Under the pieces are notes generated by a model. It was given only the letters and a program-made list of their open reading frames with translations, ran no database searches and was not told the DNA's origin. This document shows positions 12,344 through 64,000 of a stretch of DNA of 64,000 nucleotides, in pieces. The number at the start of each line of letters is the position of its first letter. Position 1 is the first letter of the stretch. The translations under genes and the position numbers were made by a program. Source of the DNA: an uncultured Akkermansia sp. GTDB taxonomy: Bacteria; Bacteroidota; Bacteroidia; B-17B0; Aurantibacillaceae. The stretch lies in contig CAZPEC010000008.1 in the NCBI GenBank assembly GCA_964585565.1, forward strand, positions 8,201 through 72,200. Direction: 5' to 3'.

Positions 12344-12356
12344 ACTCTCTTATATA

Positions 12357-13691
12357 TTAAAATTTTTCCCCTTCCAACCTGGCAACCACGGCACTGGCTA
12401 CGGCATTTCCAACCACATTAGTTGCACTTCTGCCCATATCTAACAATTGATCAACGGCAAGTAATAACAATAAGCCTTCCTGCGGTATATGAAACATGGC
12501 CAACATACCCGCTATAACTACCAAAGACGCTCTTGGAACACCCGCCATTCCCTTACTGGTAACCAGCAAAATAAGCATCATGTTAATTTGATCGCCGGCG
12601 GTTAAGGTTATATTATAGCTCTGGGCAATGAATAGTGTAGCAAAGGTCATGTACATGATAGAGCCATCCAAATTAAAAGAATAACCAAGAGGCAATACAA
12701 AACTTACTATTCGTTTACTTATACCATGATTTTCAAGCGCTTCAATGGTTTTAGGCATGGCACTCTCGCTACTGGCTGTACTAAAAGCCAGCAAAATCGG
12801 CTCTTTAATATCACGAAGTAAGCGTAAAAAATTAATACGAAACAGTTGGCATATTACAAATAATACCACGAATACAAAAAACAGCAAGCCTCCAAAAAAG
12901 CAAACAATAAGATATAAGTAACCGGTAAGTAAGTCTAACCCTTGCTGTATAACCACTGCCGTAATAGCACCAAAAATACCTACAGGAGCAAAATTCATTA
13001 CGTAGTTGGTAACTTTAAACATCACATGAGCCAAACTGTCGCAAGCATGAACAATACTTTTGCCCTGCTCTTTTATAGAGGCAGCGGCTACTCCAAAAAA
13101 AAGTGCAAAAATAACTATCGGCAATATTTCATTTTTAGCCATGGAACCAATAACGCTCTCCGGAATCACATGCTGAATGAAATTTTTAGCACTTTGTGCA
13201 TTTGCTCTTACCGGAGAGGTATCTCCGCCTGCAGGCAATTCAAGATGCATAATTTTACCCGGTTCAAAAATATTTACAATTACAAGTCCCAGAGCCAAGG
13301 CAATTAACGTAGCTCCTGTAAAATAAATTAATGTTTTTAACCCAATTCGGCCCACACTCTTAAAATCACCTAATTTTGCCACGCCCACTACCAATACGGC
13401 AAAAACAAGGGGGGCAATTATCATTTTTATCAGACGCAAAAAAATATCACTCAATATAGAAAACTTATCTGCCACACTTTTTTTTGCCTCTCTGAAGTAA
13501 TAATCGCGAGTTGATTGAATTAGTTTTTCTGCCTTCTTTCGTACGTCCTTATTTTTAATAAAATGTAAATCTGCTTCGTTAGCTTTCGGGAAATTAGATT
13601 GAACAGAGGTGTTGATAATATGTCCGGTAACAATTCCCAGCAACATGGAAACTACAATCCAAAGAATAAGACTATTTTTTTTAAATTTCAT
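12357..13691 (-). CDS. Dicarboxylate/amino acid:cation symporter (DAACS, GltP/DctA-like)
   Basis: 444 aa and polytopic. Family-typical segments TASSESAMP and VTSKGMAGVPRASLVV. Confidence 0.8.
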   Translation of the reverse strand: MKFKKNSLILWIVVSMLLGIVTGHIINTSVQSNFPKANEADLHFIKNKDVRKKAEKLIQSTRDYYFREAKKSVADKFSILSDIFLRLIKMIIAPLVFAVLVVGVAKLGDFKSVGRIGLKTLIYFTGATLIALALGLVIVNIFEPGKIMHLELPAGGDTSPVRANAQSAKNFIQHVIPESVIGSMAKNEILPIVIFALFFGVAAASIKEQGKSIVHACDSLAHVMFKVTNYVMNFAPVGIFGAITAVVIQQGLDLLTGYLYLIVCFFGGLLFFVFVVLFVICQLFRINFLRLLRDIKEPILLAFSTASSESAMPKTIEALENHGISKRIVSFVLPLGYSFNLDGSIMYMTFATLFIAQSYNITLTAGDQINMMLILLVTSKGMAGVPRASLVVIAGMLAMFHIPQEGLLLLLAVDQLLDMGRSATNVVGNAVASAVVARLEGEKF

Positions 13692-13696
13692 GGCAA

Positions 13697-15016
13697 CTAC
13701 AATATAGTAATCAGAGACTCCATTTTCATACCTCTGGAGCCTTTAATGAGGATAAGCGTATGTGTTATTTTATTATTTTGTAGATACTTACTGCAAGTGT
13801 CTGTGTCCGGAAATTTCAGATAATTATGGCCATTTGTTTTTTCAAATTCTTTGCCAACAAGTATTACTTTGCTGAAAGTATACTTAGCAATTAATTCCGT
13901 AATAAGTTGATGTTCTTTTACGCTTTCTTCTCCCAACTCAAACATATCACCCAGCAACAAACATTTTTCCTGACCGGGTATAGAGGCAAAATTTTCGATG
14001 GCTGCCTTCATGCTACTAGGATTGGCATTGTAAGCATCCAAAATAATTTTGTTTGCCTCCGTCTGAACAAGCTGAGAACGGTTCATGGAGGGTACATACT
14101 CTGAAAGCGCTTGATTAATTAATGCATCTTCTACTTTAAAGTAATTTGCCACACATACCGCTGCCAAACAGTTAATAAAATTGTACCTACCGGTAATTTG
14201 GGTTTTCACCAACGGGAGTTTAGACCAGTTTTTTTCTCCGTAGCGGGTTGTCCATTTAAAAACTACTGTTTCGTAATTCGACTCATCTTTCCCTATTACA
14301 TCATACAACTTTTTAACGCCGTACGAAATTTTATCATTTCCTTTTGCCAATTCCTGCAGCACCTCATCGTCTCCGCATATAAATACCTTGCCACTCTTGC
14401 TTGCAATATACCTGTATAATTCACTCTTTCCTTTTTTTACACCTTCTATACCGCCAAAACCTTCCAAATGGGCTTTTCCTATGTTGGTAATAATTCCATA
14501 ATCGGGTTCTGCAATTCTACACAATTGGTCTATTTCACCCTGGTGATTAGCGCCCATTTCAATAATCGCGAATTCATGTTCTTTATTCAGGCAAAGTAAA
14601 GTTAAAGGAACACCTATATGATTATTTAAGTTTCCTACCGTTGCCAAACATTTATATTTTTTTCCAAGGGCAGTGGAAATAAGTTCTTTATGGGTTGTTT
14701 TTGCATTGCTTCCGGTAATGGCCAGTACAGGAATACTAAATTTTTTTCGGTGATGATTGGCCAAATTTTGTAAGGTGGTTAGGGTATTTTCTACATAAAA
14801 TATGGTGCTTCCGTCCGCATACTTTTCCTCGTCTACCAAGGCAAACTTACAGCCTTTATTAATAGCCTCCCGAGCAAATTCATTGGCATTAAAATTAGCG
14901 CCTCGTAAGCTAATAAAAAGAGAGCCGGATTCAATTTTACGGGTATCAGTACAAACCTTTGCATTTGCCTGTAGAAATAACTCATATAACTTTTCCGTAT
15001 CCATGTATTGCTTCAA
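13697..15016 (-). CDS. murF: UDP-N-acetylmuramoyl-tripeptide--D-alanyl-D-alanine ligase
   Basis: 439 aa. Mur-ligase P-loop ITGSNAKTT, plus DAYNANPSSM and LGDMFELG motifs. Confidence 0.9.
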   Translation of the reverse strand: MKQYMDTEKLYELFLQANAKVCTDTRKIESGSLFISLRGANFNANEFAREAINKGCKFALVDEEKYADGSTIFYVENTLTTLQNLANHHRKKFSIPVLAITGSNAKTTHKELISTALGKKYKCLATVGNLNNHIGVPLTLLCLNKEHEFAIIEMGANHQGEIDQLCRIAEPDYGIITNIGKAHLEGFGGIEGVKKGKSELYRYIASKSGKVFICGDDEVLQELAKGNDKISYGVKKLYDVIGKDESNYETVVFKWTTRYGEKNWSKLPLVKTQITGRYNFINCLAAVCVANYFKVEDALINQALSEYVPSMNRSQLVQTEANKIILDAYNANPSSMKAAIENFASIPGQEKCLLLGDMFELGEESVKEHQLITELIAKYTFSKVILVGKEFEKTNGHNYLKFPDTDTCSKYLQNNKITHTLILIKGSRGMKMESLITIL

Positions 15017-15027
15017 ATTTCTTAAAA

Positions 15028-15060
15028 GTAAAAAACCCTTAAGTTTTTCACTTAAGGGTT
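15028..15060 (-). terminator. Intrinsic terminator downstream of gldJ
   Basis: Perfect 10-bp inverted repeat ACCCTTAAGT (15035-15044) / ACTTAAGGGT (15050-15059) with a 5-nt loop, followed on the minus strand by a U6 tract. Confidence 0.75.
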
Positions 15061-15081
15061 CTCACGCATTTATCAACAAAA

Positions 15082-16752
15082 TTATTTTCCGAGACCTACC
15101 GGACTACCCACACGCGTCATAGCACAGCGGAATCCGAGCCATGAAGTGGATTGGCGTTGATCTAAAAATCTCCTTGTTCCTGGATTCATAAAATAGGCTC
15201 GATCTCTCCAACTGCCTCCTTTAATTACACGAGCCTTATCATTTACCAACGAGGTTCTGGCATACTCATACATCATTTTATCAGATTTATCGGTATAAGC
15301 ATCTTCGCCCTCCGTATAGTATATACTAGACATCACATCTCCGTCGAGATAATTGATATAATCGGCGGTTTTATAGTTTCTGCGCTCATCCAAATTATCG
15401 GTAGATACAGCGATAGAAACCTCGCGCCACTGTACGCGCCCGGGTATATCAGATTTACCTTCGGGTGAAGCATTGTTATTACCGTTGGGGTCGGTTGTCA
15501 TGATGGTTAAAACACTGTCCACCACATCGGCGGTTTCTCCGCTGGCGCCGTGTGCTGTGGGAGGGTTAACCTTGTGCGTAAATTTCTGATAAATGGGGCC
15601 GTCAACATTGGTTAGTATTTCCCCGCCTAAACCGCCGATAAGCGTTGTACTATCTCTTTTTTGAGTGGTAAAAATATTACCGCGGAAAGGACGGAACTCA
15701 TCAGCATCCTGAATAGTGTTAGGACGATACACATCCATTACCCACTCGGTAACATTACCTGCCATGTTATACAAACCATAATCATTAGGCCAGTAAGAAT
15801 ATACAGGAGCTGTTACGTCGGCATTATCATTCAAATAACCGGCAGTACCCATGTAATCACCGGCTCCACGAACAAAGTTTGCATTCATTTGGCCAATAAA
15901 CTGGTCGGTGGCATTACGAACACCATGCCCATTCCATGGATAGATACGACGGTCGGTAATACGCTCTCCTATTGTATTGCCTATTAAACCATAGGCGGCG
16001 TATTCCCATTCGGCTTCAGTGGGCAAGCGGTATTTGGGTAAAAATATCCCATCTTCCATACGCACATCGCGCTCAGGATTTTGATCATCAAAAGAAGGTA
16101 ATTTTTGCTTAAGCTGTCCTTGCCACTTACCGGCCAAGTAGGCTTCAGTACTAAAATAATCCTGGTCAGAGGGGCTTGGTGTGTGCTCCAACAAACCTTC
16201 ACGAATAAGGATAAATTCATTTACCCTGTCGGTACGCCAGGCACAAAAATCGTTAGCTTGCAACCAGTTAACACCAACCACCGGATAATCGCGATAGGCA
16301 GGATGGCGTAAATAATACTCAACATAGGGTTCATTGTATGCTAGCTTTTCTCTCCAAACTAAAGTATCGGGAAGTGCTTTGTAATACACATCCGGAAAAG
16401 TAGGGCCAAATACCCTTGCCGTCCAATAAAGATATTCGCAGTACCCTATGTTGCTCACCTCTGTTTCATCCATATAAAATGAAGAAACAGTAACCTTTCT
16501 TGGAACATTATGCCACTCATAGGTAACATCATGTTCCGTTCTACCCATGGTAAACTGACCACCCTCAATAAGCACCAAGCCGGGACCGGTTTCTTGTTCC
16601 TCGTAGGGAACTTTTTCAAATCCGCCATTGGTTGGATCATTATACGCCCAACCGGTAACCGGAGAGCGCTCCTGAGAACAGGAAACCATCATTAAAAGGG
16701 CTATGGCCCCCAGGGTTTTTGTTTTCGTATTATTTATCCAGTTCATTTTCAT
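15082..16752 (-). CDS. gldJ: Gliding motility lipoprotein GldJ (FGE/SUMF1-like fold)
   Basis: Lipobox LLMMVSC. GWAYNDPTNGGFEKVPYEEQETGPGLVLIEGGQFTMGR near the N-terminus and GGSWRD near the C-terminus. About 556 aa. The ATG at 16752 is preferred over the TTG at 16767. Confidence 0.88.
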   Translation of the reverse strand: MKMNWINNTKTKTLGAIALLMMVSCSQERSPVTGWAYNDPTNGGFEKVPYEEQETGPGLVLIEGGQFTMGRTEHDVTYEWHNVPRKVTVSSFYMDETEVSNIGYCEYLYWTARVFGPTFPDVYYKALPDTLVWREKLAYNEPYVEYYLRHPAYRDYPVVGVNWLQANDFCAWRTDRVNEFILIREGLLEHTPSPSDQDYFSTEAYLAGKWQGQLKQKLPSFDDQNPERDVRMEDGIFLPKYRLPTEAEWEYAAYGLIGNTIGERITDRRIYPWNGHGVRNATDQFIGQMNANFVRGAGDYMGTAGYLNDNADVTAPVYSYWPNDYGLYNMAGNVTEWVMDVYRPNTIQDADEFRPFRGNIFTTQKRDSTTLIGGLGGEILTNVDGPIYQKFTHKVNPPTAHGASGETADVVDSVLTIMTTDPNGNNNASPEGKSDIPGRVQWREVSIAVSTDNLDERRNYKTADYINYLDGDVMSSIYYTEGEDAYTDKSDKMMYEYARTSLVNDKARVIKGGSWRDRAYFMNPGTRRFLDQRQSTSWLGFRCAMTRVGSPVGLGK

Positions 16753-16881: not shown

Positions 16882-17832
16882 TTAAAAAGAAGGGCAGCTA
16901 ATCGTTCTGTATTTCTTCTTTTTGGGTTTACACTCAAACTGAATCTGCAACGATACTTCGTGCGAACCGGCGGTATTTCCGCTTAATTTTGAAACAGTTA
17001 TATCGTAGCTGTACCCAAATTTAAAATTGTTGTTTTGAACACCTACTAAGGCTATAACGGCATCTTTATTTCTGTACCACAACCCGGCAACGAAAGGGCC
17101 TCTTACATAGTAAAGACCTAAATTAAGCTGACGAAACTTTTGTTGAGCCTGAAAAAGTACATTGGGAGAAAGGTAGCTTTCATTACTGCGATCACTGAGA
17201 GGTATAATAATTCCTCCGTGCCCGGTAAACTTAGCAGGCATACGAGACTGCCCCAAAAGTCCTTCATCAGGTTGAGTAATATGGTGGGCGGCAAAACCAA
17301 AAAAGTAATTTTTGCTGTATCCCAACACACCGGCCGAGAAATCGGCATTTGCTCTTTTAGCCTGGGGTACCGTTTCGGAAGTGTTCCAGACAAATCCGCG
17401 GCGAGCGTCTATCATGTCACCAAAATTAAGGCGTCCGCGGTCAAGTACTTTCTGAAAATAAGTAGCCTGTATTCCAAATTTTAAGGAAAACTCTCTGTTG
17501 ATGGCAGCATGGTACGAATAAACCAAACTGGCGTTGGTGGTTCTTAAGGTTCCTCTTGCTTGGTCATCATTCATTACAATAACCCCAAGGCCACCGGAAA
17601 GAAAATCAAAGTGTTGGTCGTATGAGGCGGAATAAGTAACGTAAGTTCCTGAAAGATTGGGCCATTGGTTACGATAATTTAAGCATACTCTGGCGCACCT
17701 GGCAGTTCCGGCAAAGGCAGGATTTAGATAAACCGGGTTTGCATAAAACTGGGTAAATTGCGGATCCTGAGCCTCCACGTTGCAGAGCATTGCCGCAAAA
17801 GCAAGCAATACAAATAAAATTCGTTTAGTCAT
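16882..17832 (-). CDS. PorP/SprF family type IX secretion system membrane protein
   Basis: Signal peptide followed by AQDPQFTQFYANPVYLNPAFAG, the family hallmark. About 316 aa and beta-barrel-like. The ORF-track start at 17892 was trimmed to the ATG at 17832 (MTKRILFVLL...). Confidence 0.85.
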   Translation of the reverse strand: MTKRILFVLLAFAAMLCNVEAQDPQFTQFYANPVYLNPAFAGTARCARVCLNYRNQWPNLSGTYVTYSASYDQHFDFLSGGLGVIVMNDDQARGTLRTTNASLVYSYHAAINREFSLKFGIQATYFQKVLDRGRLNFGDMIDARRGFVWNTSETVPQAKRANADFSAGVLGYSKNYFFGFAAHHITQPDEGLLGQSRMPAKFTGHGGIIIPLSDRSNESYLSPNVLFQAQQKFRQLNLGLYYVRGPFVAGLWYRNKDAVIALVGVQNNNFKFGYSYDITVSKLSGNTAGSHEVSLQIQFECKPKKKKYRTISCPSF

Positions 17833-17857
17833 ATAAAAATGTACCAATCCTATCTTA

Positions 17858-17865
17858 CAAATATA
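17858..17865 (-). promoter_or_regulatory. Candidate -7 box (TATATTTG) for the porP/sprF-like gene
   Basis: Perfect TAnnTTTG on the minus strand, 26 nt upstream of the ATG at 17832. Confidence 0.4.
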
Positions 17866-17871
17866 ATAATG

Positions 17872-17879
17872 TATTTTTG
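17872..17879 (+). promoter_or_regulatory. Candidate -7 box (TATTTTTG) for porU-porV
   Basis: Perfect TAnnTTTG on the plus strand, about 76 nt upstream of the porU ATG and back-to-back with the minus-strand box. Confidence 0.35.
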
Positions 17880-17954
17880 AATAGAAAAACATTTTCTTAA
17901 CAATATTTTACTTAAGTAAGCGTTTTTAATTTGTTAATATTACGTCCTTTAGCC

Positions 17955-20900
17955 ATGAAAAGAGTCCTCCTTATAGGAATAGTTCTGTTTTGCGTTCAAT
18001 TAAGGGCTCAAAGAACCGCTTTTAACAATTCTGTAACCTCAAACAAATCCGGAAAAAGCAATATAATTCAGATTAACCGTAAAGGTTACGAAAAAATTAT
18101 ACTAAAAAATGCGCACTATAATCCGGAGAAAAAAAATTTTCCATTTTTTCTGGAAACTAAATCAAGTGCTCAAAACCAACGCTGGAAGGCTGAGCTCAAA
18201 ATACTGGCTACTCGCCCTGTATCTGTTGAAGAACGAGAGGTTATTCAAAGCGAGCTGGGCAATTTTTTAAAGAGTAATTTTGAAACTACACAGTTTTACG
18301 CAACTGCCGGAACAGAGGAAATAAGCTATTGTCAAATTTACCCCTTCCGACTTAATGGAAACATACTGGAAGAACTGACCAATTACGAAATAAACTGGGT
18401 TCCGACAAGCTACCAACCTACCGCTTCAAAAGTAAAAAGTAGCTCGTTTAAAAACAATTCCGTACTGGCAAGTGGTAATTGGTACAAAATAGCTGTTCCA
18501 AGAAGCGGGATGTACCGTATCAACAGATCATTTTTAATTTCTGCGGGTATTAATCCGGCTAATATAAATCCTAAAAACATTCGTATTTACGGTAATGGGG
18601 GTAAAGAATTACCTCATCGGAACTCTGATTTCAGATACGACGACCTGGAAGAGAATGCCATTTTCGTAGCAGGAGAGGCAGATAATAGTTTTGATGCCGA
18701 AGACTACATCCTTTTCTACGCACAGGGTACTGTTTCCTGGCAAAAAATCAACTCCAACAGCGGACTTATTTTTAACTACTCCAGAAACACCTACAGCGAT
18801 ACCGCCTATTATTTTTTAACCACCGACTTGGGTCCGGGTAAGCGCATAAACACAGTTAACTCCCTTGGTGCAACACCCAACCACATTACCAACACTTACG
18901 ATTATTATAACTTTCATGAATCCGATCAAGTAAACTTTGTAAAAAGCGGACGTAACTTTTACGGCGAGTACTTCGACAATACCACTTCTTATTCCTTTCC
19001 CTTTAATGACAATAATTTTGTAACCGGCGATACTATTCGTGTAGAGTGTGTTATTGCCGGCAGAAGCTTTGTAAACAATGTTTACTCTGTTACAGGAAAC
19101 GGAATTAACTTTAACATAACCTGCACAGGTTTTGATATAAGCAATTACTTATCTGACTATGCACATGTTCAAAAAGGGTTCAGTAAAACACTTAACACCA
19201 ACTCGTCTAACATTGTTATCAGTGTTACAAAACAAACTGCCAACGCCGTAGCGTATTTAGACAAAGTAGCTGTTAACGCCAGAAGAGAACTTGTTTTTAA
19301 TAACACTTCTTTTTCTTTTCGCGACAGCAGAGTGTGTGCTCCCGGAAATATTACCGAATACCGAATTTCCGCATCCAATCCTTCTTCCCTCATGGTTTGG
19401 AATGTTAGTGATTTTATTAACCCTTTCCGTCAACAAACTAATATTACAGGAAATGAATTAAATTACGTAGCCACCGCCGACTCACTTCAGGAATATGTGG
19501 TTTTTAATCCATCTTTTCTCCCTCCACCCATTGCATACGGAAAAGTGAATAATCAGAACCTACATGCTATTGAACAAGCTGATTATGTTATCGTAACTCA
19601 TCCGCTGTTTTTATCCCAGGCAAATCGGCTGGGTCTTTTACATCAGCAGGAAGAGGGGCTCAGCTATGTGGTAGTTACCACACAACAAGTATATAATGAA
19701 TTTGGAAGCGGTATTGCTGATGCAGGAGCTATTCGAGACTTTACGCGCATGCTTTACTGGAGAGGGAAGAACTTAACAAATCCCCGGCCGGTTAAATATC
19801 TGCTGTTGATGGGAAGAGGCTCTTACCATAATAAAAACGGCAGGCCCGGAAATTCTAATTTTATACCTACTTATCAAACAGAAAATTCTGTTTCGTACAT
19901 AAGCAGCGTAGCAACCGACGATTTTTATGGACTAATGGATCCTAACGAAGGTTTTGTTCCCGAAAACTTTGGCGCTATGGACGTAGGGGTTGGACGCATA
20001 GTTGTTTCAAACCCTTTGCAGGCCGACGATGTAGTTAGAAAAATTGAAAACTATTATCGCAAAGGCGGACTTCCTCCGTTAACCTTTGATAATTGCAGCC
20101 CTGATAATAATACCTCCATAATGGGGGACTGGAGAAACTACATCATGTTTAGTGCCGACGACGGAGACTGGGCCCTGCACATGCAACAAGCCGACGATTT
20201 AGCAAACAAAGTAAAACAAATTGCACCTTCTTACAATATCGATAAGGTATACATAGATGCCTATAAGGGCCTGAGTACGCCAGGTGGAAAGCGTTATCCG
20301 GATATGCAAGCAGCCTTTAATAACCGTGTAAAAAAAGGGTGTTTGGTTATGAACTACACCGGACATGGAGGTGAAGTAGGGCTTGCCGCCGAGCGTGTGG
20401 TTGATATTCCAACCATTAATAGTTGGAACAACATTAATAACCTGCCGCTTTTTATTACCGCTACCTGTGAGTTTAGCCGTTATGACGACCCGGACCGTGT
20501 TTCTGCCGGAGAACTTTGTCTCCTAAATCCAAAAGGAGGATCGGTAGCCATGCTCACAACCTGCCGCTTAGCTTTTTCCAACTTTAATAAAACGCTTAAC
20601 GAACGCATTTTTGATTATCTTTTTCCAACCGAAAAAGGTTCTCCCTACCCCGCTTTAGGTGATGTAATCAGAAGAACAAAAGCTAATCTTACGCAATTCT
20701 TGTACTATGCCAACTTCCACCTGTTAGGCGACCCCGCCTTAACACTGGCTTATCCTCGAAATAAAGTCATAATGAGCGAAATTAACGGCAAACCCATCAG
20801 TCCAAGCTCTGCCGATACTATTAAAGCATTATCAAAAGTTACCGTAAAAGGATTCATAGCCGACACATCGGGTAATAAACTCAGTTCGTTTAACGGCTTA

Positions 20901-21863
20901 ATTTACCCCATGGTGTTTGACAAAAAAGAATTAATTGTATGTCAGCTTAACGACCCCGGTTCTTCTGTAAGTACTTCCAGTCAGGTTCCTTTTAAATTTT
21001 ATACCCAGCAAAATATCATATATAAAGGCAAATCAGAAGTAAAAAACGGCGACTTTCAATTCACCTTTATGGTGCCAAAAGATGTTTCATTTGCCTACGG
21101 AAATGCTCGTTTCAGCTTCTACGCAACTAATGGAAACATAGATGCCGGAGGAAATTATGATAGCGTAAAGGTGGGTGGAATAAACCCAAATGCCATTCCC
21201 GACAATGTGGGGCCGCAAATCAAAATGTTCCTGAATAGCAAAAGTTTTGTAAACGGAGGAACCACCAATCAAAACCCCATATTAATGGCAGAAGTTACCG
21301 ACTCCAGCGGCATAAATACCGTAGGAACCGGTTTTGGACACGATATTACCGCCATTTTGGATGAAAATACCAACCGCCCCTACGTTTTAAACGATTTTTA
21401 CGAAGCCAATTTAAACAGCTATCAAAGCGGTACTATTCGTTATCAATTTAAGGATATTCCGGAAGGCCCTCATACCATGAGTCTCAAGGTATGGGATGTA
21501 CAAAACAATTCCAGCACGGCCTATACCGATTTTATTGTTGCCCGAAACGAAGAATTAGCTCTTAATATGGTTTTAAATTACCCCAATCCGTTTACAACAC
21601 AAACCAAGTTTTTCTTTGAACATAACAGAAATTGCGAAGATTTAAAAGTTCTCATCCAGATATTTACCATCAGCGGGAAAATGGCCAAAAGTATTATAAA
21701 AACTGTTAATTGTGAGGGATTCAGGAATGAGGGGATTAGCTGGGACGGACGAGATGATTATGGCGATAAGCTTGGAAGAGGGGTATACTTGTACAAGGTT
21801 ACTGTCTCAGATAAGGACAATAAAAAAGCAGAAAAAATTGAAAAATTGGTAATACTAAATTAG
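17955..21863 (+). CDS. porU: Type IX secretion system sortase/C-terminal signal peptidase PorU (peptidase C25-like)
   Basis: About 1302 aa. Signal peptide MKRVLLIGIVLFCVQLRAQ. C25-like segments YLLLMGRGSYH, NYTGHGGEVGLA and FITATCEFSRYD (Cys). C-terminal beta-sandwich LNYPNPFTTQTKFFFEHN...KLVILN. Confidence 0.88.
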   Translation: MKRVLLIGIVLFCVQLRAQRTAFNNSVTSNKSGKSNIIQINRKGYEKIILKNAHYNPEKKNFPFFLETKSSAQNQRWKAELKILATRPVSVEEREVIQSELGNFLKSNFETTQFYATAGTEEISYCQIYPFRLNGNILEELTNYEINWVPTSYQPTASKVKSSSFKNNSVLASGNWYKIAVPRSGMYRINRSFLISAGINPANINPKNIRIYGNGGKELPHRNSDFRYDDLEENAIFVAGEADNSFDAEDYILFYAQGTVSWQKINSNSGLIFNYSRNTYSDTAYYFLTTDLGPGKRINTVNSLGATPNHITNTYDYYNFHESDQVNFVKSGRNFYGEYFDNTTSYSFPFNDNNFVTGDTIRVECVIAGRSFVNNVYSVTGNGINFNITCTGFDISNYLSDYAHVQKGFSKTLNTNSSNIVISVTKQTANAVAYLDKVAVNARRELVFNNTSFSFRDSRVCAPGNITEYRISASNPSSLMVWNVSDFINPFRQQTNITGNELNYVATADSLQEYVVFNPSFLPPPIAYGKVNNQNLHAIEQADYVIVTHPLFLSQANRLGLLHQQEEGLSYVVVTTQQVYNEFGSGIADAGAIRDFTRMLYWRGKNLTNPRPVKYLLLMGRGSYHNKNGRPGNSNFIPTYQTENSVSYISSVATDDFYGLMDPNEGFVPENFGAMDVGVGRIVVSNPLQADDVVRKIENYYRKGGLPPLTFDNCSPDNNTSIMGDWRNYIMFSADDGDWALHMQQADDLANKVKQIAPSYNIDKVYIDAYKGLSTPGGKRYPDMQAAFNNRVKKGCLVMNYTGHGGEVGLAAERVVDIPTINSWNNINNLPLFITATCEFSRYDDPDRVSAGELCLLNPKGGSVAMLTTCRLAFSNFNKTLNERIFDYLFPTEKGSPYPALGDVIRRTKANLTQFLYYANFHLLGDPALTLAYPRNKVIMSEINGKPISPSSADTIKALSKVTVKGFIADTSGNKLSSFNGLIYPMVFDKKELIVCQLNDPGSSVSTSSQVPFKFYTQQNIIYKGKSEVKNGDFQFTFMVPKDVSFAYGNARFSFYATNGNIDAGGNYDSVKVGGINPNAIPDNVGPQIKMFLNSKSFVNGGTTNQNPILMAEVTDSSGINTVGTGFGHDITAILDENTNRPYVLNDFYEANLNSYQSGTIRYQFKDIPEGPHTMSLKVWDVQNNSSTAYTDFIVARNEELALNMVLNYPNPFTTQTKFFFEHNRNCEDLKVLIQIFTISGKMAKSIIKTVNCEGFRNEGISWDGRDDYGDKLGRGVYLYKVTVSDKDNKKAEKIEKLVILN

Positions 21864-21898
21864 TATCTTTAGCGTTCCTTTGTGGACTTTAAATTAAG

Positions 21899-23137
21899 AT
21901 GAGGAAGTTTCTGTTGATAATACCGGCATTTTTCATTTGCCGTTTTTCGACTGCTCAAATAAGCAGCCAAACACTCAGGGGTACTACGCTAAACCCTATC
22001 ACCACAGCCGTACCCTTTCTACTTATAGGCCCCGACAGCAAGCAAGGCGCCATGGGTGATGTGGGTGTGGCTACAGACCCCGATGCTAACTCTACACACT
22101 GGAATGGCAGTAAACTGGCCTTTACCGAAAAGAAATTTGGCGTTGGGTTAACCGCTACTCCTTGGTTGAGAACTTTGGTTCCTGATATTTATCTATACTA
22201 TCTTACCGGATATTCGAAAATTAATGACAAACAGGCCATTAGCGCCTCCCTGCGTTATTTCACCCTGGGAAATATTCAGCTCACCGATGCGCAAGGAAAC
22301 AACACCGGAGATTTTAAACCCAACGAATTTGCTATCGACTTAGGTTTTTCACAAAAACTATCCAAAAATTTCTCCTTGGGTGTAGCTACGCGCTTTATCA
22401 ACTCCAGTATAAGCCGCGTATTTTTTAATGGACAGCAGGGAAATGCTGCCAGTACGGTAGCAGTAGATTTGAGCATGTTTTACCGAAGTGAGCAATTTAA
22501 ACTGGGTGACAAAAAAGCCTATGCAACATGGGGAGCCGCATTTACTAATTTGGGTGCCAAGATTAAATACAGCACCGAAAAAAATTACATCCCCATGAAT
22601 ATGCGAACAGGTGGAGGTTTAAAGATGAATTTGGACGACTATAACACTTTTGGTTTCTACCTCGACTTTAACAAACTGCTTGTTCCAACGCCTCCTATCT
22701 ACGAATATGCAAAAGATAGTTTAGGCAACACTACACCGAATATTGCCATTGACCCGGTTACCGGAGCCAAGGTAATAAAGAAAGGGAAAGACCCCAACGT
22801 ACCTGTAGCCCAAGGCATATTTCAATCTTTTAGCGATGCCCCCGGAGGGATGAAGGAGGAACTGAAAGAGGTAAACATCAGTTTTGGTATGGAATACGAG
22901 TACAATAAAGTATTTGCCGTACGTGCCGGATATTTTCATGAACCCATCAGTAAAGGTGCCCGACAATTTTTCACTTTGGGAGTTGGCTTTAAATACAGTG
23001 TGGGCAGTGTAGATATTTCATATCTGATTCCTCGAACTATTAACAACCCCTTGCAAAACACTTTCCGTATCTCCCTCTCTTTTTATTTTGATGCAGATAA
23101 GAAAAAAGAAGAGGGACAAACATTGGTTCAACCTTAG
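21899..23137 (+). CDS. porV: Type IX secretion system outer-membrane shuttle protein PorV (LptO)
   Basis: 412 aa. N-terminal TTAVPFLLIGPDSKQGAMGDVGVATDPDANSTHWN is the PorV hallmark. Lies immediately downstream of porU. Confidence 0.88.
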   Translation: MRKFLLIIPAFFICRFSTAQISSQTLRGTTLNPITTAVPFLLIGPDSKQGAMGDVGVATDPDANSTHWNGSKLAFTEKKFGVGLTATPWLRTLVPDIYLYYLTGYSKINDKQAISASLRYFTLGNIQLTDAQGNNTGDFKPNEFAIDLGFSQKLSKNFSLGVATRFINSSISRVFFNGQQGNAASTVAVDLSMFYRSEQFKLGDKKAYATWGAAFTNLGAKIKYSTEKNYIPMNMRTGGGLKMNLDDYNTFGFYLDFNKLLVPTPPIYEYAKDSLGNTTPNIAIDPVTGAKVIKKGKDPNVPVAQGIFQSFSDAPGGMKEELKEVNISFGMEYEYNKVFAVRAGYFHEPISKGARQFFTLGVGFKYSVGSVDISYLIPRTINNPLQNTFRISLSFYFDADKKKEEGQTLVQP

Positions 23138-60281: not shown

Positions 60282-61514
60282 ATGACACTCGCCGCTAAAA
60301 ACATCATCTTTTCTGTTATTACTTTGTATATCATGGCATGCCATTCGGGCGGTAATGAGAAGAAAGAAAACACAAGCACCGCTTCTAATCAGACTGAAAA
60401 TACTGCCGAAAAACAAAATAATAATGCTCTAAAAAACAACGCTACTGTTCCTGTTAATGATACTTTAAATGATTTGGCCAATTTTATTGCCGGACAAACA
60501 AAACATTCTTACAAAACACTGGAAAAATTCAGAAAAGAAAAAAGTTTTCTTTCTTTCTCGGAAAATTTTTCCAAAAAATGGAAAAAGTTCGACTCCACTA
60601 AATTAGCCGGAATCCGAAATTTTACCCAACAAGATTTCAAACCCTACACGCAAACAAAAAATATTTTCTATCCTTTTTCCGGACCCGATGTGCTGTTTGC
60701 TTCCACCTTTTTTCCGGAGGCAAATAATTTTACACTCATAGGCCTGGAGCCGGTAGGAACCTTGCCTATTATTGATGATAAAGATTTAATCCCGGATTCT
60801 ATTCATCATTACTTCAATAAAATTAACACCTCGTTGTATGCCATTCTTAACTTCAGCTTTTTTAGAACCGTTGCCATGAAAGAAGATTTACGCAATACCG
60901 AAGTAGATGGCACCATTCATTTAATACTGCTTTTTTTAAATAAAACCGGCCACAACATTTGCAGTATAAAACCATTTTACATCGATAGTCTGGGGAATAA
61001 AAACTATGTAAAAAATACACTGGTACTTAAAAACAAAAATTACCGAAACAGCAGTATAGAAATTATTGTTAGCGATGCTGCCGGTAATACAAAAAATTAT
61101 ACCTACACCTCTACCGATTTGAGCGACGGTGGTCTTTTAAAAAACAAAGGGCTAATTACCTATCTCAAAAATCTGAATATGGAAACTACCTACCTGAAAG
61201 GTGCTTCTTACCTGATGCATAAACCCGGCTTTAAACAAATTCGGAATCTTATTTTGGACCTGAGCAACACCGTGGTGCAAGATGACAGCGGCATTGCCAT
61301 GCAATACATCAGCTCACATAAAGATAAATGGGAATACCATTTGTTTGGCGAATATCACAAGCCTATTCCCATGTTTTCTCAACATTATCAAAAAGATTTA
61401 GACTCGCTGTACAAAACACAAGGTTCCAAAAAGCTGGGCTTTGGTTTGGGGTATAACTACCGCGACAAAAACAGCAACTTTATGGTTATTAAAAAAACAG
61501 GAAAAACTTCTTGA
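60282..61514 (+). CDS. Lipoprotein of unknown function
   Basis: ATG at 60282 gives MTLAAKNIIFSVITLYIMAC (lipobox), followed by a low-complexity N/T/E linker and then a globular domain containing IFYPFSGPD. The ORF-track start at 60228 overlaps the permease and was rejected. Confidence 0.55.
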   Translation: MTLAAKNIIFSVITLYIMACHSGGNEKKENTSTASNQTENTAEKQNNNALKNNATVPVNDTLNDLANFIAGQTKHSYKTLEKFRKEKSFLSFSENFSKKWKKFDSTKLAGIRNFTQQDFKPYTQTKNIFYPFSGPDVLFASTFFPEANNFTLIGLEPVGTLPIIDDKDLIPDSIHHYFNKINTSLYAILNFSFFRTVAMKEDLRNTEVDGTIHLILLFLNKTGHNICSIKPFYIDSLGNKNYVKNTLVLKNKNYRNSSIEIIVSDAAGNTKNYTYTSTDLSDGGLLKNKGLITYLKNLNMETTYLKGASYLMHKPGFKQIRNLILDLSNTVVQDDSGIAMQYISSHKDKWEYHLFGEYHKPIPMFSQHYQKDLDSLYKTQGSKKLGFGLGYNYRDKNSNFMVIKKTGKTS

Positions 61515-62758
61515 TAAAATACCTATATAGCTGCTTGCTGTTACTCCCTCTGATTTTTCGCTCACAGGAAAACTCTAAATTGTTGCAGCAGGTTATTGAG
61601 AGCAAACCTAACCTAAATAAAATAATTCAACAACAGGAAGTTTATCAACCTCAAATTATTTATACTCAAATAAACCGCGATGCCAATAACAAACCATCCT
61701 TTACTCACCATTATTATTTAGTTGACAGCAGCCGCTACTTTTACTGCGCCAGCCTGGTTAAATTGCCCTGCTCCATCATGGCCCTGGAAAAGTTAAACGA
61801 ACTAAATATTCCGGGCTTAAACGAAAACAGTATTATGTTTACCAATGGCGTTTATCCCTGCAAAAACACCTGCGAGAAAGATAGCGCCACCGAAAACGGT
61901 TTTCCGAGTATAGCCGGATACATAAAAAAAATGCTGCTGGTAAGTGATAACTTCAGCTACAGCCGCGTATTTGAATTTTTAAATCCGGATTACATACAAG
62001 AAAGCCTGAAGAAAAAAGGTTATCCCCATGCCCGCATTATACATCGTTTTGATGCTCTTTGTAGGGAAGCGCCGGGCTATAAAATAAACCCCATTGATTT
62101 TTATGACGAAAAAATGAACCTGCTTTACCGCATAAAAGAGTATACAGCCAAACAAGGATACAAACATCCCTTTCATGAGCAAGTGATTTTGGGAAAAGAT
62201 GTGTACAATACAAAAGGCAAAAAAGTTTCAGAAAAAAAAGATTTTACTTTCTCCAATTTTATTTCGTTGGAAAACTTTCACAGCATGCTGCTAAGACTCT
62301 TATTTCACAAGCACCTGAACGAAAAAATGAAATATAATATTACCGAATACCAACGCAATTTTTTGGTAAAACACTTGGGCATGTACCCCTCCGAAAGCCA
62401 GTACCCTAAATACAACCCCGAGAATTTTAACGACTCCTTTAAAAAATATTTTATTTACGGAGGTGCCGAAAAAAAAATAAACTCCGACACCCTTCGGGTA
62501 TTTAACATGATAGGTTACTCCTACGGTTTTATAATGGATTGTGCCTACATAGTAAATTACAAAACCGGTGTTGAGTTTATGCTAAGCGCCGTATTATATA
62601 CCAACGCCCGAAACAGCTTTGGCAGCGGCGCTTACGAATACAAAGGTATAGCCATACCCTTTTTAAAAGAATTAAGCCTGGAGCTTTATAAACTGGAAAG
62701 CAAACGCGAAAAAAAATACAAACCCAATTTAAAAGAGTTTGCCTTGTTTGAAAAATAA
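61511..62758 (+). CDS. Secreted class A beta-lactamase-like serine hydrolase
   Basis: 415 aa with a signal peptide. S-x-x-K (CASLVKL), then an S-D-N triad (LLVSDNF) about 60 residues downstream, matching class A spacing. TTG start overlaps the upstream TGA. Confidence 0.6.
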   Translation: MIKYLYSCLLLLPLIFRSQENSKLLQQVIESKPNLNKIIQQQEVYQPQIIYTQINRDANNKPSFTHHYYLVDSSRYFYCASLVKLPCSIMALEKLNELNIPGLNENSIMFTNGVYPCKNTCEKDSATENGFPSIAGYIKKMLLVSDNFSYSRVFEFLNPDYIQESLKKKGYPHARIIHRFDALCREAPGYKINPIDFYDEKMNLLYRIKEYTAKQGYKHPFHEQVILGKDVYNTKGKKVSEKKDFTFSNFISLENFHSMLLRLLFHKHLNEKMKYNITEYQRNFLVKHLGMYPSESQYPKYNPENFNDSFKKYFIYGGAEKKINSDTLRVFNMIGYSYGFIMDCAYIVNYKTGVEFMLSAVLYTNARNSFGSGAYEYKGIAIPFLKELSLELYKLESKREKKYKPNLKEFALFEK

Positions 62759-62887
62759 CAATACAGCCTCCTTTTTTGTTCCCTAGCCATCCTCCTAAAT
62801 TCCTATAAATCAAGCCTAAGAACTTTATAAAGCATATTTTTTTTTTGAAATTAAAAATTTGCTTGGTAATTTGGGGTAACGAGAAAG

Positions 62888-62912
62888 AAAAAACCCCACG
62901 CAAGGCGCAGGG
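62888..62912 (-). terminator. Terminator-like hairpin plus U6, folding well only on the minus strand, 29 nt upstream of cas9
   Basis: Minus-strand RNA CCCUGCGC-CUU-GCGUGGGG forms 8 contiguous pairs (two are G-U), followed by UUUUUUC. On the plus strand the two G-U pairs become C-A mismatches. Confidence 0.45.
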
Positions 62913-62940
62913 TTTGTTTAATAAGAACATTATATACTTT

Positions 62941-64000
62941 ATGAATATGAGAAAGATTTTAGGTCTTGATTTAGGTGTGAGTTCAATTGGTTGGTCTCTC
63001 GTAAAAGAGGAAGGAGATAAACCATCGGAAATAATCGGAATGGGGGTAAGAATCATTCCATTAGACAAAGATGAGAGTGATGAATTTTCAACAGGAAATA
63101 AAATCACTAAAAATCAAAAAAGAACAACTAAACGTACGATGCGTAAAGGCTACTATCGATATACACTCAGACGCAAAGCCCTAACAATCGAGTTGAAAAA
63201 ACATAATATGTTTGACGAAAATCTTTTTCATATACCTCAGCTTAAATTATGGGGATTACGAGCAAAAGCCGTTACAGAAAAAATTAGTTTAAACGAATTA
63301 GGCAGAGTATTATATCATTTAAATCAAAAACGTGGCTACAAATCATCAAGAAGCGAAGAAAATGCGGATAAAAAAGATACAGAATATGTAGCAGATGTAA
63401 AAAACAGACATCAAAAATTAAAAGAAGAAGGAAGAACTATTGGCCAGAAATTTTTTGAGGAATTATCAAAAAATCAATACTACCGAACTAAACAACAAGT
63501 ATTTCCTCGTGAAGCATACATTGAAGAATATGATGCAATTATGCAAAAACAACAAGAGTATTATCCTGATATTCTAACAGATAATTTTATTAATTATCTT
63601 AAATATGATGTCATATATTTTCAACGAAAATTAAAATCACAGAAAGGCTTGGTAAGCATCTGTGAATTCGAAGGTTTTCATATGAAGAACAAAGAAGGAA
63701 AAGAAGTTTTTACAGGGCCTAAAGTAGCTCATAGAAGCAACCCATTATTTCAGGTTGAGAAAATTTGGGAAACCATAAACAATATTTCAATTAAGGATAA
63801 ACGAAATAGTGAATACTCAATAACAAATGAGCAAAAACAAATAATTTTTAAACATCTCGATAATCAGGAAAAGTTAAGTCAAAGCGAATTATTTAAAATT
63901 CTTCAGATAAAAGATAAAAGCGGTTGGTTTGGAAATAAAATGCTGAGTAAAGGTCTGCAAGGAAATCTTACAAAAGTTGCTATAAAAAATGCTATTGATA
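62941..64000 (+). CDS. cas9: Cas9 (type II-C-like), N-terminal 353 codons only; the ORF continues past the right edge
   Basis: Hand translation: MNMRKILGLDLGVSSIGWSLVKEEG... (RuvC-I). Arg-rich bridge helix KRTTKRTMRKGYYRYTLRRKAL. Also LYHLNQKRGY and IYFQRKLKSQKGLVSICEFE. No stop through 63999. Absent from the supplied ORF track. Confidence 0.9.
   Translation, partial: MNMRKILGLDLGVSSIGWSLVKEEGDKPSEIIGMGVRIIPLDKDESDEFSTGNKITKNQKRTTKRTMRKGYYRYTLRRKALTIELKKHNMFDENLFHIPQLKLWGLRAKAVTEKISLNELGRVLYHLNQKRGYKSSRSEENADKKDTEYVADVKNRHQKLKEEGRTIGQKFFEELSKNQYYRTKQQVFPREAYIEEYDAIMQKQQEYYPDILTDNFINYLKYDVIYFQRKLKSQKGLVSICEFEGFHMKNKEGKEVFTGPKVAHRSNPLFQVEKIWETINNISIKDKRNSEYSITNEQKQIIFKHLDNQEKLSQSELFKILQIKDKSGWFGNKMLSKGLQGNLTKVAIKNAID

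What the first reader, a model, noticed from the sequence alone, without database searches (positions are those of the whole stretch)
62941..64000. Truncated type II-C-like cas9 at the right edge, missing from the ORF track and A+T-rich relative to its flank
The frame starting at ATG 62941 (or 62947) is open to the last base of the window. It encodes the RuvC-I motif (ILGLDLGVSSIGWSLV), an arginine-rich bridge helix, and REC-lobe blocks typical of compact Bacteroidota Cas9s. Hand counts on a few 60-nt lines give about 28-33% G+C inside cas9, against about 37% or more in the genes immediately upstream. That is consistent with horizontal acquisition into an otherwise housekeeping region. The HNH and PI domains, cas1/cas2 and any CRISPR array must lie beyond the window, so the subtype and completeness cannot be judged here.
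Basis: partly seen in the sequence, partly recalled or inferred. Interest (0 to 1): 0.7.

Follow-up and report, generated by a model that had tools for sequence, protein, structure and literature searches.

The report
Intact type II-C cas9, mosaic locus
The window ends inside a real, intact cas9 gene of a complete type II-C CRISPR-Cas system in a hot-spring Bacteroidota chromosome; it is an ordinary kind of system, but its cas9-tracrRNA part and its cas1-cas2-array part clearly have different evolutionary histories.

Summary
The frame from ATG 62941 is open to base 64000, passes the curated Cas9 model (TIGR01865, 184.9 bits against a cutoff of 100), and has the lowest GC3 of any long ORF in the window.

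An identical public contig (L014, 0 mismatches over 11,573 nt) supplies the missing part. It holds an intact 1,250-aa Cas9 with all RuvC and HNH motifs, a conserved antisense tracrRNA just after the stop codon, a Y1/RAYT-like ORF, a type II cas1, cas2, and the first 30 nt of a high-copy repeat at the contig end.

Three related genomes keep the flanking gene order but lack the locus, so it was acquired horizontally or lost in the relatives.

The locus is a mosaic:
- Cas9 is 81% identical to L001's, with the same tracrRNA, but Cas1 is only 53% identical.
- Cas1 and Cas2 are 78% and 89% identical to L086's, with nearly the same repeat, but Cas9 is only 33% identical.

A+T-richness alone is weak evidence, because unrelated cas9 genes in similar loci show the same bias.

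Verdict: a new member of a known kind, of modest interest.

The parts
62941..64000 (+). cas9, codons 1-353 of 1250: RuvC-I, Arg-rich (bridge-helix-like) stretch, start of the REC lobe. The alternative start at ATG 62947 aligns with the orthologues' start.

The rest of the system lies BEYOND THE WINDOW on the identical contig L014 (L014 position = window position - 52427):
- cas9 continues to L014:14266 (this would be window 66693), with RuvC-II IELARE 546, HNH DVEHIIP 631, RuvC-III HHAIDA 809 and a mosaic C-terminal PAM-interacting region.
- Predicted tracrRNA on the minus strand, L014 about 14264-14332, with a -7 box TATATTTG at 14337-14344.
- Y1/RAYT-like ORF203, L014:14416-15027, with hairpins at 14637-14672 and 15038-15089.
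- cas1, L014:15107-16015.
- cas2, L014:16122-16466.
- First 30 nt of a CRISPR repeat, L014:16583-16612. In the sense orientation (minus strand) it reads AATTGTATCTTTGACTTATTGATAAACACC.
   Evidence: - Open frame; TIGR01865 184.9 bits; PDB hits all Cas9, best CbCas9 8iyq; start-codon alignment.
- L014 identical to the window over 11,573 nt; ORF of 1,250 aa.
- Full-length TIGR01865 457.5 bits, HNH_4, RuvC_III, cas1 TIGR03639 290.5 bits, cas2 TIGR01573 73.6 bits, ORF203 NF047646 67.6 bits, below its cutoff of 80.
- Catalytic motifs.
- tracrRNA block conserved in 9 loci, with 2 compensatory pairs.
- Repeat start at about 15-fold higher depth with alternative preceding sequences, matching the 47-nt repeats of L086, L088 and L019.
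62759..62940 (.). Intergenic spacer between the beta-lactamase-like gene (61511-62758) and cas9. This is the left edge of the lineage-specific CRISPR-Cas insertion. It is not conserved in related cas9 loci.
   Evidence: Upstream regions are unrelated among 8 loci. In three syntenic relatives a convergent Peptidase_M24 gene follows the beta-lactamase-like gene closely: abutting in L081, 7 nt away in L083, 152 nt away in L084. No anti-repeat is present here.
62891..62915 (.). G+C-rich hairpin with T-runs on both strands (terminator-like, probably bidirectional). It insulates cas9 from the upstream gene.
   Evidence: Terminator scan: 11-pair stem, 6 G-C pairs. The sequence reads AAACCCCACGCAAGGCGCAGGGTTTGTTT on the + strand.

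Best explanation
Window 62941-64000 is the first 28% of an intact 1,250-aa cas9. [quoted passage not shown] The host's AlaS is at most 80% identical to anything public, and the nearest named relatives are 'Sphingobacteriaceae' MAGs.

**Gene order:** cas9, then a convergent antisense tracrRNA, a Y1/RAYT-like ORF, cas1, cas2, and a CRISPR array read towards cas2.

**How it works.** The Cas protein identities are shown here; the tracrRNA is a prediction from conservation and fold; the RNA and cleavage steps are inferred from established Cas9 biology.
1. Each array unit yields a crRNA whose repeat-derived part begins GUUGUGAUUUGCUUU.
2. That part pairs with the tracrRNA anti-repeat.
3. Cas9 loaded with the duplex cleaves PAM-flanked DNA with its RuvC and HNH centres.
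4. Cas1-Cas2 insert new spacers of about 30 nt.

**Origin.** The locus lies right after a beta-lactamase-like gene, at a spot where three related genomes have nothing, so it was gained horizontally or lost in the relatives. It is a mosaic. The cas9-tracrRNA cassette belongs to a clade shared at 74-83% identity by Cytophagia, Flavobacteriia and Chitinophagia genomes and MAGs. The (Y1-like)-cas1-cas2-repeat module belongs to a different family, which elsewhere partners with Cas9s only 33-41% identical to this one.
For: **Identity and completeness**
- the fragment is Cas9.
- public contigs run past the window's end; L014 matches the window with 0 mismatches over 11,573 nt, and the ORF is intact.
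- curated Cas9, Cas1 (type II) and Cas2 models are all passed; no csn2 or cas4 was found.
- all catalytic motifs are present.

**tracrRNA**
- a conserved block with a -7 box, anti-repeat, hairpins and 2 compensatory pairs.
- every related array shares the 17-nt repeat 5' end that pairs with the anti-repeat.

**Array**
- high-copy, branching sequence at the contig end.
- that sequence matches the 47-nt repeats of L086 and L088.

**Acquisition**
- three genomes keep alaS-M23-permease-orf410-beta-lactamase-like (flanking proteins 58-88% identical) but have no cas gene, repeat or tracrRNA.

**Mosaic**
- Cas9 74-83% identical but Cas1 48-56% across lineages. Within a lineage Cas1 (85%) is at least as conserved as Cas9 (78-81%).
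- the closest Cas1s (76-80%) and Cas2s (82-89%) sit beside Cas9s of 1,211, 1,320 and 1,464 aa. The two that could be read are 41% and 33% identical to this Cas9, and their tracrRNAs lie upstream of cas9.
- the cas1-cas2-array unit occurs in both orientations relative to cas9-tracrRNA.
Against: - The array itself was not read. Only 30 nt of one repeat, plus depth and branching evidence, are available.
- No transcription or activity data exist, so function is inferred.
- The contrast between cas9 and cas1 G+C also appears in loci with unrelated cas9 genes, so composition does not support the mosaic model.
- Absence from three relatives could reflect loss in them instead of gain here.
- The identity matrices come from about a dozen loci, with no formal tree-incongruence test.
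- The host labels of several relatives are MAG bin names. One is 'Patescibacteria', probably a binning error.
Confidence: 0.88

Rival explanations
1. Degenerate or orphan cas9: a pseudogene or a lone cas9 without an adaptation module, tracrRNA or array.
For: From the window alone this could not be excluded. The Y1-like ORF separates cas9 from cas1, which might have suggested disruption.
Against: The ORF is an intact 1,250 aa with all catalytic motifs. cas1 and cas2 pass curated cutoffs. A conserved tracrRNA is present. The start of a repeat appears at high copy number at the contig end.
Confidence: 0.02
2. Vertically inherited locus. The CRISPR-Cas locus is ancestral at this site and was deleted in the three relatives. 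cas9 is A+T-rich for intrinsic reasons, such as a Lys/Asn/Ile-rich protein or selection for low expression.
For: cas9 is A+T-rich relative to cas1 in all loci, including unrelated cas9 lineages, which points to a gene-intrinsic bias. CRISPR loci are often lost. The relatives' own G+C is 0.33-0.36, not far from cas9's 0.31.
Against: In two of the three relatives (L081, L083) the convergent genes at the site lie within a few bases of each other; in L084 they are 152 nt apart. No repeat, tracrRNA or cas remnant is present in any of them. This Cas9 is 81% identical to one in a Cyclobacteriaceae MAG, while none of the 120 best AlaS hits (74-80% identical to the host's) that carry a name is labelled Cyclobacteriaceae or Flavobacteriales. 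The upstream genomic context differs in every locus aligned.
Confidence: 0.1
3. Single-donor locus. The whole cas9-tracrRNA-Y1-cas1-cas2-array block came from one donor as it stands, and the Cas9/Cas1 discordance only reflects uneven evolutionary rates.
For: No donor carrying both halves has been ruled out. Only about a dozen loci were compared. The Y1-like ORF also lies between cas9 and cas1 in L088, so that junction is not unique to this locus.
Against: The discordance is reciprocal and large: Cas9 81% / Cas1 53% against L001, and Cas9 33% / Cas1 78% / Cas2 89% against L086. Within-lineage pairs show Cas1 evolving no faster than Cas9. The tracrRNA moves with cas9: downstream in this clade, upstream in L086, L088, L009 and L010. 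This does not exclude the mosaic having formed in a donor before transfer.
Confidence: 0.07
4. The Cas9 mainly serves a non-defence role, such as regulating host genes, as reported for some Cas9 systems.
For: Nothing specific. It cannot be excluded without knowing the spacers.
Against: A complete adaptation module and a multi-copy repeat are present. The one readable spacer does not match the window or any held locus with up to 4 mismatches.
Confidence: 0.03

Closest known systems
Bacteroidetes long-repeat subcluster of type II-C Cas9 (Chylinski et al. 2013, PMC3737331)
   Same: Minimal cas9-cas1-cas2 operon; Bacteroidota host; unusually long repeats (46-47 nt in the relatives; 'up to 48 nt' in the paper); repeats starting GTTGTG.
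   Different: Here the tracrRNA lies between cas9 and cas1, antisense and convergent with cas9. The paper reports it mostly upstream of cas9 in II-C systems. An extra Y1-like ORF sits in the operon. Two close relatives (L001, L006) use 36-nt repeats.
Flavobacterium psychrophilum type II-C locus, with Fp2Cas9 replacing Fp1Cas9 (PMC10309648)
   Same: A Bacteroidota II-C locus in which cas9 alone was exchanged by horizontal transfer while cas1-cas2-array stayed. TAnnTTTG promoters are present and transposases are inserted in the locus.
   Different: That case lies within one genus, at one chromosomal site. Here the same cas9-tracrRNA cassette occurs across four NCBI classes, with unrelated flanks, beside several adaptation-module families and in both orientations. 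The tracrRNA position also changes with the cassette.
CbCas9 (Chryseobacterium, PDB 8iyq and related entries)
   Same: Best solved-structure match: 201.9 bits for the full-length protein and 112.4 bits for the window fragment. The N-terminal RuvC-I and Arg-rich (bridge-helix-like) segment aligns closely.
   Different: CbCas9 is 1,442 aa against 1,250 aa here. The fragment alignment breaks into four separate stretches across the REC region, and the C-terminal region is not matched. The relationship is distant.
Characterised II-C Cas9s in the PDB at about 1,055-1,095 aa (I recall 6jdq as Nme1Cas9 and 8uza/8uzb as GeoCas9; these names are from memory)
   Same: Same domain order and catalytic motifs, with hits of 120-170 bits. 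Thermophilic II-C Cas9s are a known group, and this one comes from a hot spring.
   Different: This protein is about 160-190 aa longer, and only the RuvC/HNH core aligns well. The repeat and tracrRNA are of the Bacteroidota type.

Membership tests
Type II CRISPR-Cas effector Cas9 | A single large protein with a split RuvC domain (motifs I, II, III), an inserted HNH nuclease and an Arg-rich bridge helix | tested here: met
   TIGR01865: 184.9 bits for the fragment and 457.5 bits full length, cutoff 100. Pfam HNH_4 and RuvC_III. Motifs GLDLG 8, IELARE 546, DVEHIIP 631, HHAIDA 809.
Type II-C CRISPR-Cas | cas1 and cas2 adjacent to cas9 | tested here: met
   cas1 TIGR03639 290.5 bits (cutoff 120) and cas2 TIGR01573 73.6 bits (cutoff 24.5), lying 0.8-2.2 kb downstream of cas9 on the identical contig L014.
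Type II-C CRISPR-Cas | No csn2 (II-A) and no cas4 (II-B) in the locus | tested here: met
   The only extra ORF is Y1/RAYT-like and has no PADLOC hit. Upstream genes are housekeeping. DNA beyond the array was not seen.
Type II-C CRISPR-Cas | A tracrRNA with an anti-repeat complementary to the CRISPR repeat | tested here: met
   Predicted only. A conserved 80-nt block holds a -7 box, an anti-repeat pairing over 15 bp with the invariant repeat 5' end, a nexus-like hairpin and a terminator with 2 compensatory pairs. No Rfam family matched inside the window, which does not contain this block. Transcription was not tested.
Type II-C CRISPR-Cas | A CRISPR array | tested here: inconclusive
   Only the first 30 nt of one repeat lie on the contig. 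Depth of 208.5 against 14 and alternative preceding 30-mers indicate many copies. The 30 nt match the 47-nt repeats of L086 and L088. The array itself was not read.
Type II-C CRISPR-Cas | RNA-guided, PAM-dependent DNA cleavage | not testable with these tools
   Needs biochemistry or an interference assay.
REP-associated tyrosine transposase (RAYT) / IS200-type Y1 transposase (for ORF203) | A curated family model is passed | tested here: not met
   NF047646 scores 67.6 bits, below its cutoff of 80. Pfam Y1_Tnp scores 20.6 bits, below its cutoff of 23. The protein is related but is not a certified member.
REP-associated tyrosine transposase (RAYT) / IS200-type Y1 transposase (for ORF203) | An HUH motif and a catalytic Tyr block | tested here: met
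   PNHFH and LYIHNNPVHHG are conserved between ORF203 and its L088 homologue and align with E. coli TnpA-REP, 4er8.
REP-associated tyrosine transposase (RAYT) / IS200-type Y1 transposase (for ORF203) | Cognate REP hairpins dispersed through the genome | tested here: not met
   The palindrome ACCTTCAAGGT occurs at 5 sites within 850 nt around ORF203 but nowhere in the 64-kb window. The L088 homologue has no flanking hairpins.

The most novel reading that the evidence does not exclude
In Bacteroidota, cas9 and its tracrRNA travel together as a self-contained cassette of about 3.9 kb. The cassette is exchanged between classes independently of the cas1-cas2-array module.

The exchange is possible because all these arrays keep an invariant 17-nt repeat 5' end, GTTGTGATTTGCTTTCA. 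Any cassette's anti-repeat can therefore read any resident array, even when repeat length (36 against 46-47 nt), spacer length (24-30 against 28-30 nt) and orientation differ.

A further, weaker reading: the Y1/HUH (RAYT-like) gene found just upstream of cas1 in two loci that have different cas9 types is a genuine accessory of this adaptation module. It could also mark the recombination junction.
Probability: 0.5. Interest if true: 0.5.

Novelty: new member of a known kind. Interest (0 to 1): 0.33.

Why it matters
In itself this is one more type II-C Cas9, 81% identical to the nearest public sequence. It comes from a hot spring, so it is of some interest as a possibly heat-tolerant nuclease with a short predicted tracrRNA of about 70 nt.

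The broader point is evolutionary. This locus and its relatives give an unusually clean, reciprocal example of the effector module (cas9 plus tracrRNA) and the adaptation module (cas1-cas2-array) being swapped across bacterial classes. A shared repeat 5' end keeps the modules compatible. That extends a replacement so far documented within Flavobacterium.

It also cautions against reading low G+C of cas9 as proof of recent transfer.

Tried and rejected
- **Rfam, whole window at gathering thresholds:** no hits. The tracrRNA lies outside the window.
- **tRNAs and arrays inside the window:** none.
- **tracrRNA upstream of cas9:** I first suspected one in 62759-62940. No anti-repeat is there, and the hairpin at 62891-62915 is just a terminator.
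- **Protein search with the fragment:** it returned only fragments and no identical protein. The metagenome scan found only 75-77% relatives. The extension was obtained instead by looking up the neighbouring permease.
- **Reading the array:** Read laying showed only 30-nt loose ends. The contig carrying the identical Cas1 was no longer than L014.
- **Protospacer search with the one readable spacer:** no match in IMG/VR, nor in the window or any held locus.
- **G+C contrast as evidence of a module swap:** rejected after L086 and L088 showed the same contrast with unrelated cas9 genes. The correlation between host G+C and cas9 G+C (r = 0.85, n = 7) is suggestive only.
- **REP elements:** the ORF203 palindrome is absent from the window.
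- **Viral single-repeat tally:** my first count was too generous. L055's repeat follows a full cas9-cas1-cas2 set, L053's is at a contig end, and several 17-mer hits look like chance matches in coding sequence.
- **Literature:** searches for a RAYT-like gene in type II operons and for a statement on Cas9/Cas1 tree congruence found nothing usable.
- **ORF203 in plasmids:** the only homologue (Aureibacter) is not next to cas genes.
- **First submission:** Those features are now described in the text of the first part.

Full report
**1. The observation**

The frame that starts at ATG 62941 (second ATG at 62947) is open for 353 codons to the last base of the window. It contains the quoted RuvC-I motif and an arginine-rich helix. 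The fragment scores 184.9 bits (E 2.7e-54) on the curated Cas9 model TIGR01865, whose cutoff is 100. All 17 PDB matches are Cas9 proteins, and the best is CbCas9.

The composition claim holds:
- The cas9 part has G+C 0.306 and GC3 0.215.
- The 42 long ORFs of the window average G+C 0.383 +/- 0.028 and GC3 0.364 +/- 0.036. None is below GC3 0.270.

The gene was missing from an ORF track only because ORF listers skip frames that run off the sequence end.

**2. What lies beyond the window**

Two hot-spring metagenome runs hold this exact sequence, and their contigs continue past base 64000. I looked up the neighbouring permease by exact protein sequence. That returned contig L014 (16,612 nt), which matches the window with no mismatch over 11,573 nt; L014 position = window position - 52427. 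On L014:

| Feature | L014 coordinates | Evidence |
|---|---|---|
| cas9, 1,250 aa, no interruption | 10514-14266 | TIGR01865 457.5 bits; Pfam HNH_4 and RuvC_III; motifs GLDLG, IELARE, DVEHIIP, HHAIDA |
| ORF203, Y1/RAYT-like, 203 aa | 14416-15027 | |
| cas1 | 15107-16015 | TIGR03639 type II/NMENI, 290.5 bits |
| cas2 | 16122-16466 | TIGR01573, 73.6 bits |

No csn2 or cas4 is present, so the subtype is II-C.

The contig ends 146 nt after cas2. Its last 30 nt are shared with other contigs at about 15-fold higher depth and are preceded there by different 30-mers. That is the behaviour expected at the edge of a CRISPR array. The caveat is that the array itself was not read.

**3. The tracrRNA**

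An 80-nt block immediately after the cas9 stop codon is almost invariant in nine loci, although the adjacent cas9 3' coding sequence differs between them. On the minus strand it reads, in order:
- a Bacteroidota -7 promoter box (TAnnTTTG; TATATTTG here);
- the anti-repeat GAAGCAAAUCACAAU a few bases later;
- a nexus-like hairpin, GGUC...GACC;
- a G+C-rich terminator hairpin whose U-tract overlaps the cas9 stop codon.

The terminator stem shows two compensatory changes (GGGCG/CGCCC to GGGUG/CACCC, and to GAGCG/CGCUC). The single sequence folds better than its shuffles (z = -3.96). The anti-repeat pairs over 15 bp with GUUGUGAUUUGCUUU, the 5' end shared by every array in the related loci. Transcription is inferred, not shown.

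The visible repeat part also contains an exact TAnnTTTG match, TATCTTTG. That would fit repeat-internal crRNA promoters, as proposed for Flavobacterium. This is an inference.

**4. Context and acquisition**

The window is ordinary Bacteroidota chromosome. It carries alaS, fumarase, sucC, fmt, HU, and type IX secretion genes (PorV, PorP/SprF, a 1,310-aa C25 peptidase). The host's AlaS is at most 80% identical to public sequences. The nearest named ones are 'Sphingobacteriaceae bacterium' MAGs and Aurantibacillus (Sphingobacteriia).

Three of those relatives keep the order alaS, M23 peptidase, permease, orf410, beta-lactamase-like gene, with proteins 58-88% identical. After that comes a convergent Peptidase_M24 gene: abutting in L081, 7 nt away in L083 and 152 nt away in L084. 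None of them has a cas gene, repeat or tracrRNA. The CRISPR-Cas locus is therefore lineage-specific at this site. Gain is the simpler reading, but loss in the relatives is not excluded.

**5. The locus is a mosaic**

Genome and metagenome scans found Cas9 proteins 67-81% identical over the full length. They occur in Cyclobacteriaceae (Cytophagia), Thermaurantimonas (Flavobacteriia), Chitinophagales and unclassified MAGs, always in different genomic contexts.

Within the core clade:
- Cas9 identity is 74-83%, whatever the host.
- Cas1 identity is only 48-56% between lineages.
- Within a lineage (L001/L006 and L002/L004), Cas1 (85%) is at least as conserved as Cas9 (78-81%).

The reciprocal test used my last protein search. 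The closest Cas1 proteins (75-81% identical) are many. Where their context could be read:

| Locus | Cas1 identity | Cas2 identity | Cas9 identity | Cas9 length | Notes |
|---|---|---|---|---|---|
| L086 | 78% | 89% | 33% | 1,320 aa | near-identical repeat and cas2-to-repeat spacer region |
| L088 | 77% | 82% | 41% | 1,211 aa | 47-nt repeat GTTGTGATTTGCTTTCAAAATGTATCTTTGACTTATTGATAAACAAC |
| Third locus (no DNA held) | 76% | not measured | not measured | 1,464 aa | context from gene calls only |

In L086 and L088 the tracrRNA lies upstream of cas9, as it does in L009 and L010.

The cas1-cas2-array unit also occurs in both orientations relative to cas9-tracrRNA. The same Cas9/tracrRNA type works beside 46-47-nt repeats with 28-30-nt spacers, and beside 36-nt repeats with 24-30-nt spacers.

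The simplest account is that cas9 plus tracrRNA and cas1-cas2-array are two units that recombine, kept compatible by the invariant 17-nt repeat 5' end. Replacement of cas9 alone inside a II-C locus is documented within Flavobacterium psychrophilum (PMC10309648). What is seen here is the same phenomenon at a much wider phylogenetic scale. From memory, Chylinski et al. 2014 reported largely congruent Cas9 and Cas1 trees for type II systems. I could not retrieve that text.

**6. Composition, reconsidered**

In every locus examined, cas9 is A+T-rich relative to its flanks and to the adjacent cas1. Examples are L001 (0.37 against 0.52) and L009 (GC3 0.20 against 0.60). The same holds for L086 and L088, whose cas9 genes are unrelated to this one.

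It cannot by itself date or prove a transfer. Whether it reflects a persistently low-G+C gene pool or selection on cas9 remains unexplained.

**7. Other anatomy**

The last 100-150 residues of Cas9 (the PAM-interacting region) are mosaic. They are 68% identical to L001 and 59% to L007, but only 30-38% identical to otherwise close relatives. PAM preference probably differs within the clade.

ORF203 has the HUH motif and the Tyr block of REP-associated Y1 transposases, but it scores below the curated cutoffs. It carries a perfect hairpin inside it and another just after it, built on a motif that is absent from the 64-kb window. A 46%-identical homologue occupies the same position in L088, packed tightly between cas9 and cas1. 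A plasmid homologue in Aureibacter is not cas-linked.

**8. Verdict**

This is a genuine, intact and apparently complete type II-C CRISPR-Cas9 system, and a new member of a known kind. The most interesting aspect is the clean evidence for exchange of a cas9-tracrRNA cassette between classes. That is a matter of degree, not of kind.

Noticed in passing
L019:5365-5465 (IMGVR_UViG_3300045051_001472): A viral contig with no cas genes and no array carries one complete 47-nt II-C repeat. In the sense orientation it reads GTTGTGATTTGTTTTCAAATTGTATCTTTGACTTATTGATAAACAGC, and its 3' part matches the repeat at the end of the window's contig. It is preceded by a 33-nt G+C-rich spacer-like segment, which is the layout of a type II crRNA. 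The whole unit is bracketed by the inverted repeat AAAAGCGCAGC/GCTGCGCTTTT. It looks like a phage solitary repeat unit or mini-array (an RNA anti-CRISPR candidate, compare PMC10651486). The spacer-like 33-mer matches nothing else in IMG/VR or in the held loci.
   Followed up: partly
L020, L024, L032, L047, L050, L051, L067, L071, L073, L075 (group A); L021, L035, L044, L066 (group B): Two recurrent groups of IMG/VR contigs carry only the first 23 nt of the Bacteroidota II-C repeat (GTTGTGATTTGCTTTCAAATTGT or ...AAATTAG). That is about the part a mature crRNA keeps. In each group it is preceded by the same conserved sequence. These may be phage-encoded crRNA-like genes. Other single 17-mer hits look like chance matches.
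   Followed up: partly
L014:14416-15027 (would be window 66843-67454, beyond the window); L088:7320-7991: A Y1/HUH (RAYT-like) ORF lies between cas9 and cas1 in two loci that share the adaptation module (Cas1 77% identical) but have different cas9 genes (41% identical). The two ORFs are 46% identical. It is unclear whether this is a cas-associated accessory gene, a marker of the recombination junction, or a repeated insertion. I found no description of it in the held literature.
   Followed up: partly
L014:14637-14672, 15038-15089 and 15474-15484: The palindromic motif ACCTTCAAGGT forms a perfect 15-nt hairpin inside ORF203 (in frame), a perfect 16-nt hairpin between ORF203 and cas1, and a single copy inside cas1. 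It is absent from the whole 64-kb window.
   Followed up: partly
L006:15378-18830 (Cyclobacteriaceae MAG KatS3mg032); L001:15284: The array has 56 repeats of only 36 nt and unusually variable spacers (24-30 nt, mode 25-26). It sits next to a Cas9 and tracrRNA nearly the same as those that elsewhere use 46-47-nt repeats with 28-30-nt spacers. The Cas1 ORF found in L006 is only 204 aa, so it may be truncated.
   Followed up: partly
L002:13947-16166 (Thermaurantimonas aggregans): Between a lone repeat just after the tracrRNA and the main array lie two ORFs. One has a Mu-like portal domain. The other has a Mu F-like domain plus a CdiA C-terminal toxin domain. This appears to be phage-derived DNA inserted into the CRISPR locus. 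In this genus cas1-cas2 lie inverted on the far side of the array.
   Followed up: partly
all cas9 loci examined (L001-L013, L086, L088): cas9 is consistently much more A+T-rich than the adjacent cas1 and the host flanks (for example L009, GC3 0.20 against 0.60). This holds across unrelated cas9 lineages and is unexplained.
   Followed up: partly
window 62863-62940: The public gene call for cas9 starts at TTG 62863 (1,276 aa) and runs through the terminator-like hairpin at 62891-62915. The orthologues support ATG 62941 or 62947 instead. A 176-aa minus-strand ORF at 62577-63107 overlaps the cas9 start and is probably spurious.
   Followed up: yes
L014 about 14165-14180 (beyond the window): In run X1 the 72-kb contig stops about 100 nt before the cas9 stop codon, and the next contig starts 15 nt later. 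In run X2 the assembly is continuous. This suggests strain variation near the mosaic C-terminal end of cas9.
   Followed up: no
L086:9385-9431: This locus appears to have a single repeat after cas2, directly followed by an arginase gene. It is a full cas9-cas1-cas2 set with a one-repeat 'array'.
   Followed up: no
window 16882-23137: A type IX secretion cluster: PorP/SprF (16882-17892, minus strand), a 1,310-aa C25 (gingipain-family) peptidase (17931-21863) and PorV (21899-23137).
   Followed up: no
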